This document shows positions 4,343 through 4,453 of a DNA stretch of 11,224 nt, piece by piece. Source of the DNA: a virus; the UHGV virus genome UHGV-1660473; one strand, 5' to 3'. The notes beneath the pieces were generated by a model. That model worked only from the letters and a program-made list of their open reading frames with translations. It searched no databases and was not told where the DNA came from. The first letter of the stretch is position 1; each line of letters begins with the position of its first letter. The translations under genes were made by a program, and so were the position numbers.

Positions 4343-4383
4343 GTCGGTTCAAAATACCGTGTTGTTGGTTCAGTGTTGGTTCA
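4343..4383 (-). repeat. Three copies of the 9-mer TGAACCAAC in reverse orientation (GTTGGTTCA; two perfect, one GTCGGTTCA variant)
   Basis: Copies at about 4343-4351 (variant), 4364-4372 and 4375-4383, spaced 21 and 11 bp apart (helical phasing). Confidence 0.5.
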
Positions 4384-4426
4384 ATAAAAAGAATAAAATC
4401 CTTATAAAACAATACACTTTACAAAT

Positions 4427-4453
4427 TGAACCAACTGAACCAACTGAACCAAC
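4427..4453 (+). repeat. Three perfect tandem copies of the 9-mer TGAACCAAC (iteron-like)
   Basis: TGAACCAAC TGAACCAAC TGAACCAAC read directly. This lies about 25 bp beyond the primase stop codon. Confidence 0.6.

What the first reader, a model, noticed from the sequence alone, without database searches (positions are those of the whole stretch)
4343..4453. Candidate iteron-type replication origin immediately 3' of the primase-helicase gene
Five perfect copies and one variant of the 9-mer TGAACCAAC lie in two opposed clusters around a ~43-bp, very AT-rich spacer that could act as a DNA-unwinding element. The site begins about 25 bp after the primase stop codon. Primase-helicases of this type commonly bind iterons in a neighbouring origin.
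Basis: partly seen in the sequence, partly recalled or inferred. Interest (0 to 1): 0.55.

Follow-up and report, generated by a model that had tools for sequence, protein, structure and literature searches.

The report
Replication origin of an EcCIMP1-type satellite
The repeats are real and are very probably the replication origin of a known E. coli phage satellite (an EcCIMP1-type island); this kind of origin is already established for such islands, so it is a solid but mostly ordinary finding.

Summary
Three tandem TGAACCAAC copies (4427-4453) face two perfect copies and one variant (4343-4383) across a 43-bp spacer that is 84% AT. The array starts 25 nt after the stop codon of a minus-strand TOPRIM-DUF927 primase-helicase.

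In 117 distinct related loci the same array sits in the same place, and repeat copies are about 900 times denser there than elsewhere. The repeat word differs between lineages (at least 10 classes). Each class maps one-to-one to a short basic patch at the primase C-terminus (residues 882-906). That patch and the array are exchanged together as a cassette.

Window 50-9615 is 98.8% identical to EcCIMP1, a phage-inducible chromosomal island (PICI) shown by experiment to be mobilised by a P22-like helper phage. An origin just 3' of pri-rep, with iterons flanking an AT-rich centre, is the documented hallmark of staphylococcal and Gram-negative PICIs. The EcCIMP1 paper does not describe an origin.

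One new detail: the window holds only one of two mirror-image units. In relatives the units are contiguous (~290 bp). In the E. coli islands about 8.1 kb, including P22-type ejection genes, lies between them.

The parts
4479..7238 (-). Fused primase-helicase initiator (919 aa). Residues 35-70 are a Zn-ribbon, 222-319 a Toprim domain, and 366-644 a DUF927 P-loop helicase core; a C-terminal domain follows.
   Evidence: Pfam hits. The N-terminal 360 aa are homologous to the P4 alpha primase domain (32% identity, E 7e-41). Residues 403-814 match PDB 8TCH 'Pathogenicity island protein' (E 1.4e-11) and 5DGK 'Active helicase' (E 0.012).
4521..4595 (-). Codons for residues 882-906 (TPPNSGRGYQRKSPRIQGRQINVYV). 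This basic patch is predicted to form a beta-hairpin or wing and tracks the iteron class.
   Evidence: The patch is invariant within an iteron class and variable between classes. No segment is shared between classes. Both AF2 models place strand-loop-strand here, but at low confidence.
4454..4478 (.). 25-nt gap between the primase stop codon and the first iteron.
   Evidence: A similar 25-35 nt gap is present in relatives.
4427..4453 (+). Three perfect tandem iterons, TGAACCAAC x3 with a 9-nt period (GTTGGTTCA in primase sense).
   Evidence: Relatives carry 2-3 tandem copies at the same position.
4384..4426 (.). AT-rich spacer (43 nt, 84% A+T), the candidate DNA-unwinding element. It contains a TTTATAAGG-like core that is partly conserved across iteron classes.
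4343..4383 (-). Three inverted iterons: 4375-4383 and 4364-4372 are perfect and 11 nt apart; 4343-4351 is the variant TGAACCGAC, 21 nt further on.
   Evidence: Most close relatives have a perfect third copy. EcCIMP1 itself has 21/21-nt spacing because of a 10-nt indel.
4304..4312 (-). Central CTGGCTGGC motif (minus-strand sense). It marks the inner end of unit 1 and is the last position that aligns with the contiguous two-unit arrays of relatives.
3895..4303 (.). Non-coding stretch between unit 1 and the 53-aa ORF. It is the start of the ~8.1 kb that separates unit 1 from unit 2 in the E. coli islands, and it contains two 15-nt palindromes.
   Evidence: RefSeq annotates no CDS here in two genomes. 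The junction was mapped.

Best explanation
Positions 4343-4453 are unit 1 of the vegetative replication origin of an EcCIMP1-type phage-inducible chromosomal island (PICI). The proposed mechanism follows. The island's own primase-helicase is encoded immediately upstream on the minus strand. It recognises the 9-bp iterons through a small basic patch in its C-terminal domain (residues ~882-906). Molecules bound to the two opposed iteron sets sit on either side of the 43-bp, 84% AT spacer, and the spacer melts. The DUF927 helicase then loads itself onto the opened DNA without DnaA or a separate loader. The N-terminal P4-alpha-type primase makes the first primers, and the host polymerase takes over. 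Shown here: the array itself; its strict position; its conservation; the co-variation of iteron word with the C-terminal patch; the homologies of the protein; and the identity of the element. Inferred: binding, melting, self-loading, and the claim that unit 1 alone is enough.
For: (1) Position and layout are conserved. In 117 distinct related loci from more than 25 genera of Enterobacterales, 850 iteron copies lie within 450 nt after the primase stop, against 21 copies in the other 1.17 Mb. That is about a 900-fold enrichment. (2) The layout is the same everywhere: 2-3 tandem copies, a ~45-nt AT-rich spacer, then inverted copies spaced about 11 and 21 nt apart. (3) All copies change together between lineages: TGAACCAAC, GAGACAACA, ACGGGTTA, TCGGTTCA, GTGGTTCA, TGGGATAAG, GTGGGTTA, ACGGGTTCA, TCGGGTA, and CAGGGGCA in a homologue only 30% identical. 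(4) Between primases that are 90-100% identical over residues 360-800, a change of iteron class goes with divergence only in the last ~40-120 residues. At equal core identity, C-terminal identity is much lower between classes than within a class (Mann-Whitney p < 1e-60 in every bin), while the N-terminus shows no such effect. (5) The 882-906 segment maps one-to-one to iteron class. For example, YQRKSPRI goes with GTTGGTTCA and YQGRVRE goes with GTTGTCTCA. (6) In 5 of 8 class-switch pairs, similarity is lost 300-500 nt before the stop and returns just past the array. The C-terminal coding end and the array are therefore swapped as one cassette bounded on both sides. (7) The helicase core is homologous to a solved 'Pathogenicity island protein' (8TCH, E 1.4e-11) and to the SCCmec helicase Cch (5DGK). 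SaPI Reps are self-loading helicases whose C-terminal winged helix reads 6-12 iterons just downstream of rep, around an AT-rich centre (PMC9371898). (8) Window 50-9615 is 98.8% identical to EcCIMP1, an experimentally mobilised PICI. Gram-negative PICIs 'always' have two iteron sets flanking an AT-rich region 3' of pri-rep, and a pri-ori plasmid from EcCICFT073 replicates (PMC6092414). I read the EcCICFT073 origin directly and it has the same layout. (9) No DnaA box lies near the array.
Against: There is no experiment on this element; the EcCIMP1 paper shows excision and transfer but does not report replication or an origin. The C-terminal domain could not be shown to be a winged helix. The models are low-confidence (pLDDT 55 and 64), the best fold match (TcpK, a winged-helix protein bound to oriT DNA) has E = 0.14, and a profile search of solved structures found nothing. 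The C-terminal patch lies within about 140 nt of the array, so physical linkage contributes to the co-variation. A few homologues have no array at all: L153, L155, L157, L158, L057, L050 and L068. In the E. coli islands the array is split by about 8 kb, so it might be impaired.
Confidence: 0.85

Rival explanations
1. The array works like P4 crr. It is a cis-acting replication enhancer bound by the initiator, not the place where synthesis starts. Unit 1 and the distant unit 2 cooperate by protein-mediated DNA looping, as P4 ori and crr do.
For: In P4 the crr element starts about 46 nt 3' of the alpha stop. It has tandem type-1 repeats 9 nt apart plus inverted copies, and the true ori is 4.5 kb away. 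The window primase shares its primase domain with P4 alpha. The E. coli islands have two iteron clusters 8.2 kb apart.
Against: The island has no third cluster that could serve as a separate ori. In about half of the relatives the two units are contiguous within ~290 bp. In five loci a single unit is followed directly by PerC. The bipartite state is therefore derived, not a requirement of the system. The helicase and C-terminal domain are not P4-like.
Confidence: 0.1
2. The array is mainly an operator. The repeats are regulatory binding sites through which the initiator or another island protein controls transcription of downstream genes such as PerC or the ejection-gene block.
For: In relatives, and in unit 2 of the E. 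coli island, the tandem triplet lies 30-40 nt upstream of the PerC start, next to a conserved TTTGCTTAT(C)TATATAA stretch that resembles an extended -10. Iteron-binding initiators often autoregulate (general knowledge of iteron replicons).
Against: No sigma-70-like promoter was found anywhere in 3700-4700. The array sits at the 3' end of the initiator gene, not at its promoter. The AT-rich centre flanked by opposed sites, and the match to validated PICI origins, are not explained by a purely regulatory role. This role could exist alongside origin function.
Confidence: 0.04
3. The inverted repeats act as RNA: a long hairpin that terminates or stabilises the primase transcript.
For: The transcript of 4320-4485 folds at -51 kcal/mol, z = -4.6 against shuffles. 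Rfam gave only sub-threshold hairpin-type (miRNA precursor) hits.
Against: Any inverted iteron array gives this signal. No U-tract follows the stem, and the terminator scan found nothing here. The two arms differ in spacing (9 nt against 11 and 21 nt) and in copy number, so the stem is irregular. Relatives keep the repeat word and its spacing rather than a continuous helix, and many add further copies in mixed orientation.
Confidence: 0.01

Closest known systems
Replication origins of Gram-negative PICIs (EcCICFT073 and relatives; Fillol-Salom et al. 2018, PMC6092414)
   Same: The element type is the same: int, AlpA, unidirectional genes, DUF4222, pri-rep, then the ori, then PerC. The origin lies immediately 3' of pri-rep. 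Tandem 9-mers, an AT-rich spacer and inverted or spaced copies are all present; I read this layout directly in EcCICFT073 (CTGTCTACC x2 and so on). Function was shown there with pri-ori plasmids.
   Different: The initiator is not homologous. EcCICFT073 Pri-Rep is a 584-aa D5_N/DUF5906/Pox_D5 protein with no detectable similarity to the 919-aa Toprim-DUF927 protein here. The iteron word differs. Here the origin is a mirror-image two-unit structure, and in E. coli the units are split by about 8 kb.
SaPI origins and SaPI Rep / PriRep self-loading helicases (Ubeda et al., as cited in PMC9371898)
   Same: 6-12 short iterons lie just downstream of rep. There is an AT-rich centre with at least two iterons on each side pointing in opposite directions. 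Primase and Rep are fused in some islands. The helicase core is homologous (PDB 8TCH 'Pathogenicity island protein', E 1.4e-11). Specificity resides in the C-terminal domain.
   Different: The iterons are 9-mers rather than penta- or hexanucleotides. The primase domain is of the P4-alpha (Zn-ribbon + Toprim) type. A winged-helix fold for the C-terminal domain is not demonstrated here. The host is Gram-negative.
Satellite phage P4: alpha protein with ori and crr
   Same: The N-terminal primase domain is homologous (32% identity over 359 aa, E 7e-41). An iteron array (crr) lies directly 3' of the gene, with tandem copies 9 nt apart and inverted copies across a spacer. There are two cis elements kilobases apart, which resembles the split state in the E. 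coli islands.
   Different: The helicase and origin-binding parts are unrelated by sequence. The P4 iteron is the 8-mer TGTTCACC. P4 crr consists of two direct 120-bp repeats, whereas the two units here are inverted. P4 needs a separate ori, and no third cluster exists here.
EcCIMP1 (Pick, Stadel & Raivio, ISME J 2025, PMC11773190)
   Same: It is the same element type. Window 50-9615 is 98.8% identical to EcCIMP1, with the same tRNA-Thr/proA site and the same gene order. EcCIMP1 carries both iteron units with six perfect copies each.
   Different: The paper does not mention an origin or iterons (0 occurrences). Unit 1 of EcCIMP1 has 21/21-nt spacing, where the window has 21/11.

Membership tests
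PICI/SaPI-type replication origin | Lies immediately 3' of the replication initiator (rep or pri-rep) gene | tested here: met
   The array starts 25 nt after the stop at 4479-4481. The same holds in 117 related loci.
PICI/SaPI-type replication origin | Two sets of iterons in opposite orientation flanking an AT-rich region, with at least two per side | tested here: met
   There are 3 + 3 copies around a 43-nt spacer that is 84% AT.
PICI/SaPI-type replication origin | Carried by an island with PICI hallmarks: integrase, AlpA, unidirectional transcription, no lysis or capsid genes, and helper-phage dependence | tested here: met
   The parent island has a tyrosine integrase, AlpA (PF05930), Ash and PerC, all on one strand. 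It is 98.8% identical to EcCIMP1, whose Kapi1-dependent excision and transfer were shown experimentally. Caveats: it carries P22-type ejection genes, is ~20 kb long, and sits at a tRNA-Thr site.
PICI/SaPI-type replication origin | Initiator is a self-loading helicase homologous to SaPI Rep | tested here: met
   DUF927 domain, E 3.5e-47. PDB 8TCH 'Pathogenicity island protein', E 1.4e-11 over residues 403-814, and 5DGK, E 0.012. Self-loading itself was not tested.
PICI/SaPI-type replication origin | C-terminal winged-helix domain of the initiator reads the iterons | tested here: inconclusive
   Specificity maps to residues 882-906. The fold is not established: pLDDT 55 and 64; best Foldseek hit TcpK (winged helix bound to oriT DNA) with prob 0.97, TM 0.51, E 0.14; no sequence-profile hit in the PDB.
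PICI/SaPI-type replication origin | Initiator and iterons form cognate, island-specific pairs | tested here: met
   At least 10 iteron classes map one-to-one to C-terminal segments and are exchanged as a cassette.
PICI/SaPI-type replication origin | A rep-ori segment drives autonomous, ori-dependent replication | not testable with these tools
   This needs a plasmid replication assay. It has been shown only for EcCICFT073 and SaPIs in the literature.
P4 ori/crr system | P4-alpha-type Zn-ribbon/Toprim primase domain | tested here: met
   BLASTP: 32% identity over 359 aa, E 7e-41.
P4 ori/crr system | D5/SF3-type helicase and the P4 origin-binding domain | tested here: not met
   There is no similarity to P4 alpha beyond residue ~360. 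Pfam finds DUF927, not D5_N or Pox_D5.
P4 ori/crr system | Two separate cis elements (ori and crr), both carrying the iteron | tested here: inconclusive
   The E. coli islands have two clusters 8.2 kb apart, but relatives have them contiguous or have one unit only. Separation is therefore not a family property.
Iteron plasmid origins (RepA/pi/TrfA type) | 17-22-bp directly repeated iterons with DnaA boxes, and an initiator that has no helicase and depends on DnaA, DnaB and DnaC | tested here: not met
   The repeats are 9-mers in opposed orientation. The nearest DnaA-box-like match (<=1 mismatch) is ~2 kb from the array. The initiator carries its own helicase and primase.

The most novel reading that the evidence does not exclude
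In EcCIMP1-type islands the ancestral ~290-bp palindromic two-unit origin has been opened exactly at its centre. It now brackets an ~8-kb cargo block that includes P22-type ejection genes matching the P22-like helper phage. Two readings follow. Either the half-origins still work together over 8 kb through initiator-mediated looping, an independently evolved P4 ori/crr-like arrangement. Or the split cripples autonomous replication and helps explain the island's low transfer rate. The centre of the array also holds inserts of 1.1 and 2.2 kb in other genera, so it may be a recurrent cargo-insertion site.
Probability: 0.25. Interest if true: 0.5.

Novelty: new member of a known kind. Interest (0 to 1): 0.33.

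Why it matters
The result supplies a missing part for a satellite that is already studied experimentally: EcCIMP1 has no described origin. It gives exact coordinates to clone or delete when testing whether the island replicates after Kapi1 induction. The comparative set offers a natural specificity series, with at least 10 iteron words paired with small changes in a ~25-residue patch. That series could be used to work out how this class of self-loading helicase reads DNA, and to build orthogonal initiator/origin pairs. It also shows that three different initiator architectures use the same origin layout: the P4 alpha type, the D5_N type of EcCICFT073, and the Toprim-DUF927 type here. The concept itself, an iteron origin 3' of pri-rep in PICIs, is established, so a specialist would not be surprised.

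Tried and rejected
Rfam scan of 3600-4700: only sub-threshold miRNA-precursor hits caused by the inverted symmetry. Promoter and terminator scan: no promoter, and no terminator at the array. DnaA boxes: none near the array.

Overlapping ORFs 4161..4412(-) and 4212..4472(+): no Pfam hit for the former; the + strand ORF merely reads through the tandem 9-mers (EPTEPTEPT); RefSeq annotates no CDS here in two genomes. I rejected both as genes.

Homology between the window primase and the EcCICFT073 Pri-Rep: none, so membership rests on layout and element type, not on a shared initiator.

Structure of the C-terminal domain: two AF2 runs (155 aa and 90 aa) stayed at pLDDT 55 and 64, and the fold search gave one suggestive but non-significant hit. 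A profile search of PDB sequences found nothing.

Phage database search with 3700-4700: only short weak hits unrelated to the array. A search for PDB code 8TCH in the literature library found no relevant paper.

Pure physical linkage as the explanation for the co-variation: weakened but not removed by the two-sided cassette boundaries.

Full report
OBSERVATION. The window has TGAACCAAC three times in tandem on the + strand (4427-4453). It has two perfect copies on the - strand (4364-4372, 4375-4383) and one 1-mismatch copy (TGAACCGAC, 4343-4351). The 43 nt between the clusters (4384-4426) are 84% A+T, against 51% for the window. All long ORFs are on the minus strand. The 919-aa ORF 4479..7238(-) has a primase Zn-ribbon, a Toprim domain and a DUF927 P-loop domain. 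Its stop codon is at 4479-4481, so the array begins 25 nt 3' of it. In 500 dinucleotide-preserving shuffles, no 9-mer reached more than 3 copies within 120 nt; 5 exact copies are observed.

WHAT THE ELEMENT IS. Window 50-9715 is 99.5% identical to a chromosomal island of E. coli 3985 (L001). Window 50-9615 is 98.8% identical to the corresponding island of E. coli MP1 (L161). The island lies at tRNA-Thr next to proA. Reading along one strand it has: tyrosine integrase, AlpA, antA/antB antirepressor, DUF4222, Ash, small ORFs, the primase-helicase, a ~580-bp gap holding the repeats, a 53-aa ORF, homologues of P22 gp14 (DUF2824), gp7 and gp20, a 906-aa SLT-domain protein, three hypothetical genes, and PerC. 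The MP1 copy is EcCIMP1, a 19,963-bp PICI. Pick et al. showed that it excises, circularises and is transferred only with the P22-like helper phage Kapi1 (PMC11773190). That paper does not contain the words ori, iteron or origin of replication.

COMPARATIVE TEST. I fetched 157 loci encoding homologues of the primase (50-100% identity, plus two at ~30%) from GTDB species genomes and IMG/VR. They span more than 25 genera of Enterobacterales. I located each stop codon and counted short words in the 300 nt downstream. Nearly every distinct downstream region has a repeat cluster. Most use TGAACCAAC (3-12 copies). Other lineages use GAGACAACA, ACGGGTTA(C), TCGGTTCA, GTGGTTCA, TGGGATAAG, GTGGGTTA, ACGGGTTCA or TCGGGTA, and a Desulfohalobiaceae homologue at 30% identity uses CAGGGGCA.

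The layout is constant in primase sense: stop codon, 25-35 nt, 2-3 tandem copies, a ~45-nt AT-rich spacer with a TTTATAAGG-like core, inverted copies about 11 and 21 nt apart, then a CTGGCTGG motif. Over 117 distinct loci, 850 copies lie within 450 nt of the stop and only 21 lie in the remaining 1.17 Mb, about a 900-fold enrichment. Exceptions exist. One ~52%-identity lineage on large contigs (L153, L155, L157, L158) has only a degenerate remnant. L057, L050 and L068 have no array.

LINK TO THE PROTEIN. I paired each primase of a non-TGAACCAAC class with its nearest TGAACCAAC neighbour. Identity is 90-100% across residues ~360-800 and collapses only in the last 40-120 residues. For example, L140 against L124 runs at 97-100%, then 90, 80 and 37%. 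Pairs of the same class that are far more divergent overall keep the C-terminus. At matched core identity, identity over residues 861-919 is lower between classes than within a class in every bin (Mann-Whitney p from 5e-67 to 2e-272). The N-terminus shows no such effect.

The discriminating positions fall in 882-906 (TPPNSGRGYQRKSPRIQGRQINVYV). No version of this segment occurs in two classes. The changes are local. YQRKSPRI goes with GTTGGTTCA and YQGRVRE goes with GTTGTCTCA, a 2-nt difference.

This patch is only about 140 nt from the array, so I tested for simple linkage. In 5 of 8 class-switch pairs, DNA similarity is lost 300-500 nt before the stop and returns just past the array. For L092 against L090 it runs 99-100%, then 14-71%, then 83-85%. 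The C-terminal coding end and the array therefore move as a cassette bounded on both sides. That is what a cognate DNA-binding domain and its site would show.

PROTEIN RELATIONSHIPS. Residues 8-362 are homologous to the primase domain of P4 alpha (32% identity, E 7e-41), and nothing beyond that is. Residues 403-814 match PDB 8TCH, 'Pathogenicity island protein' (E 1.4e-11), and 5DGK, 'Active helicase' (E 0.012). The protein is thus a mosaic: a P4-type primase joined to a SaPI-Rep/Cch-type helicase.

The C-terminal domain gave only low-confidence models (pLDDT 55 and 64). Both have the element order strand-strand-helix-helix-strand-loop-strand, and the specificity patch falls on the final hairpin. 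The only fold hit above noise was TcpK, a winged-helix protein solved on oriT DNA (prob 0.97, TM 0.51, E 0.14). I treat the winged-helix assignment as unproven.

KNOWN SYSTEMS. SaPI Reps are self-loading helicases. Their C-terminal winged helix reads 6-12 iterons placed immediately downstream of rep, around an AT-rich centre, with at least two opposed iterons on each side (PMC9371898). [quoted passage not shown] They showed that an EcCICFT073 pri-ori plasmid replicates while pri and ori deletions do not, and they list PerC as a PICI accessory gene (PMC6092414).

I read the EcCICFT073 origin directly. It has CTGTCTACC x2 in tandem, an AT-rich spacer, then inverted and spaced copies, in a 288-bp gap after the primase gene. 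Its initiator, however, is a D5_N/DUF5906/Pox_D5 protein with no similarity to the one here. P4's own annotation places crr about 46 nt 3' of alpha. crr has tandem type-1 repeats 9 nt apart and inverted copies, and the ori is 4.5 kb away. The layout is thus shared across three initiator architectures.

A SECOND UNIT AND A SPLIT ARRAY. About half of the relatives carry a longer array of ~290 bp with 8-12 copies. Its second unit mirrors the first and ends in a tandem triplet just upstream of PerC. The window has only unit 1.

In the parent islands, six more perfect copies lie 8.2 kb away, between a hypothetical gene and PerC: L001 12477-12597 and L161 10736-10856. The two units share an exact 44-nt stretch in inverted orientation. 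I aligned them to L099, which has a contiguous array. E. coli unit 1 matches L099 3-181 and ends at CTGGCTGGC. Unit 2 matches L099 217-377. The E. coli island therefore has about 8.1 kb, including the P22-type ejection genes, at the exact centre of the array. Smaller inserts at the same place occur in L061 (1.1 kb) and L060 (2.2 kb). Five loci have a single unit followed directly by PerC, so a single unit is a naturally occurring form. The island has no third cluster.

RIVALS. A crr-like enhancer role is possible for the split E. coli state, but it is not a property of the family. An operator role may exist alongside origin function, because a conserved extended -10-like stretch follows unit 2 before PerC. 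It does not explain the AT-rich centre, and no promoter was found at unit 1. The RNA hairpin signal (z = -4.6) follows automatically from inverted repeats; no U-tract follows, and the arms differ in spacing and copy number.

VERDICT. This is the origin, unit 1 of two, of an EcCIMP1-type PICI, and it is of the established PICI/SaPI kind. It is a new member of a known kind. The specific origin, its specificity classes, the C-terminal determinant and the split state were not found described in the searchable literature. The principle is well known, so interest is moderate to low.

Noticed in passing
window 1-49 and 9716-11224: These ends match no E. coli genome. 9925-10914(-) encodes the N-terminal 329 aa of a large serine recombinase (Resolvase + Recombinase domains), and the break falls inside the island's ash gene. 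The window looks like a chimeric or recombinant contig joining the E. coli island to foreign DNA.
   Followed up: partly
L001 12477-12597 (= window coordinate about -3824 to -3704, outside the window); L161 10736-10856: A second, mirror-image iteron unit with six perfect TGAACCAAC copies (three spaced 21 nt apart, an AT-rich spacer, three in tandem) lies just upstream of the PerC gene, 8.2 kb from unit 1.
   Followed up: yes
window 1265-3716 (-) and L001 14849-20017: A PICI carries a P22-type gene 14-7-20 block (DUF2824, P22_gp7, Inj_translocase) followed by a 906-aa SLT-domain protein where P22 gene 16 would be. The island's helper, Kapi1, is P22-like, so the satellite may supply its own ejection proteins. 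Pick et al. note the similarity but propose a packaging role.
   Followed up: partly
window 4218-4232 and 4275-4289; 4145-4255: Two 15-nt palindromes (TACGAAAATTTCGTA and TACGAAAGTCTCGTA) lie 57 nt apart in the non-coding stretch between unit 1 and the 53-aa ORF. Part of this stretch has weak DNA similarity to Klebsiella and Shewanella phages (72-89% over 45-112 nt). This could be an operator or promoter region for the ejection-gene block, or a gene remnant.
   Followed up: no
L001 12441-12476 and the equivalent position in relatives (e.g. L003, L021, L055): A conserved TTTTGCTTAT(C)TATATAA stretch lies between the last tandem iteron of unit 2 and the PerC start codon. It resembles an extended -10 promoter element, which suggests that iteron occupancy could gate PerC expression.
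   Followed up: no
L161 19276-19396 versus window 4343-4453: Unit 1 of EcCIMP1 (strain MP1) has its three inverted copies 21 and 21 nt apart and all perfect. The window has 21/11 spacing (a 10-nt deletion of AAAATACCGT-like sequence) and one mutated copy. Iteron spacing therefore varies within E. coli.
   Followed up: partly
L153, L155, L157, L158 (IMG/VR contigs of 17.6-99 kb), L057, L050, L068: Primase homologues (~52% identity and others) have no iteron array within 4 kb. The first four keep a class-D-like C-terminal patch and only a degenerate TGAACTGAC at +16. The origin may have been lost or moved in these elements.
   Followed up: partly
L033 (Yersinia pekkanenii) 4001-7866; protein P0082: The primase match spans 3.9 kb instead of 2.8 kb, and a fragment from this contig is named 'HNH endonuclease domain-containing protein'. 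The primase gene may carry an inserted homing endonuclease or intein.
   Followed up: no
L004 (record titled Chryseobacterium sp. 18061): A complete enterobacterial-type primase (78% identity) with a 12-copy TGAACCAAC array sits in a genome labelled Chryseobacterium. This is probably contamination or mislabelling of the assembly.
   Followed up: no
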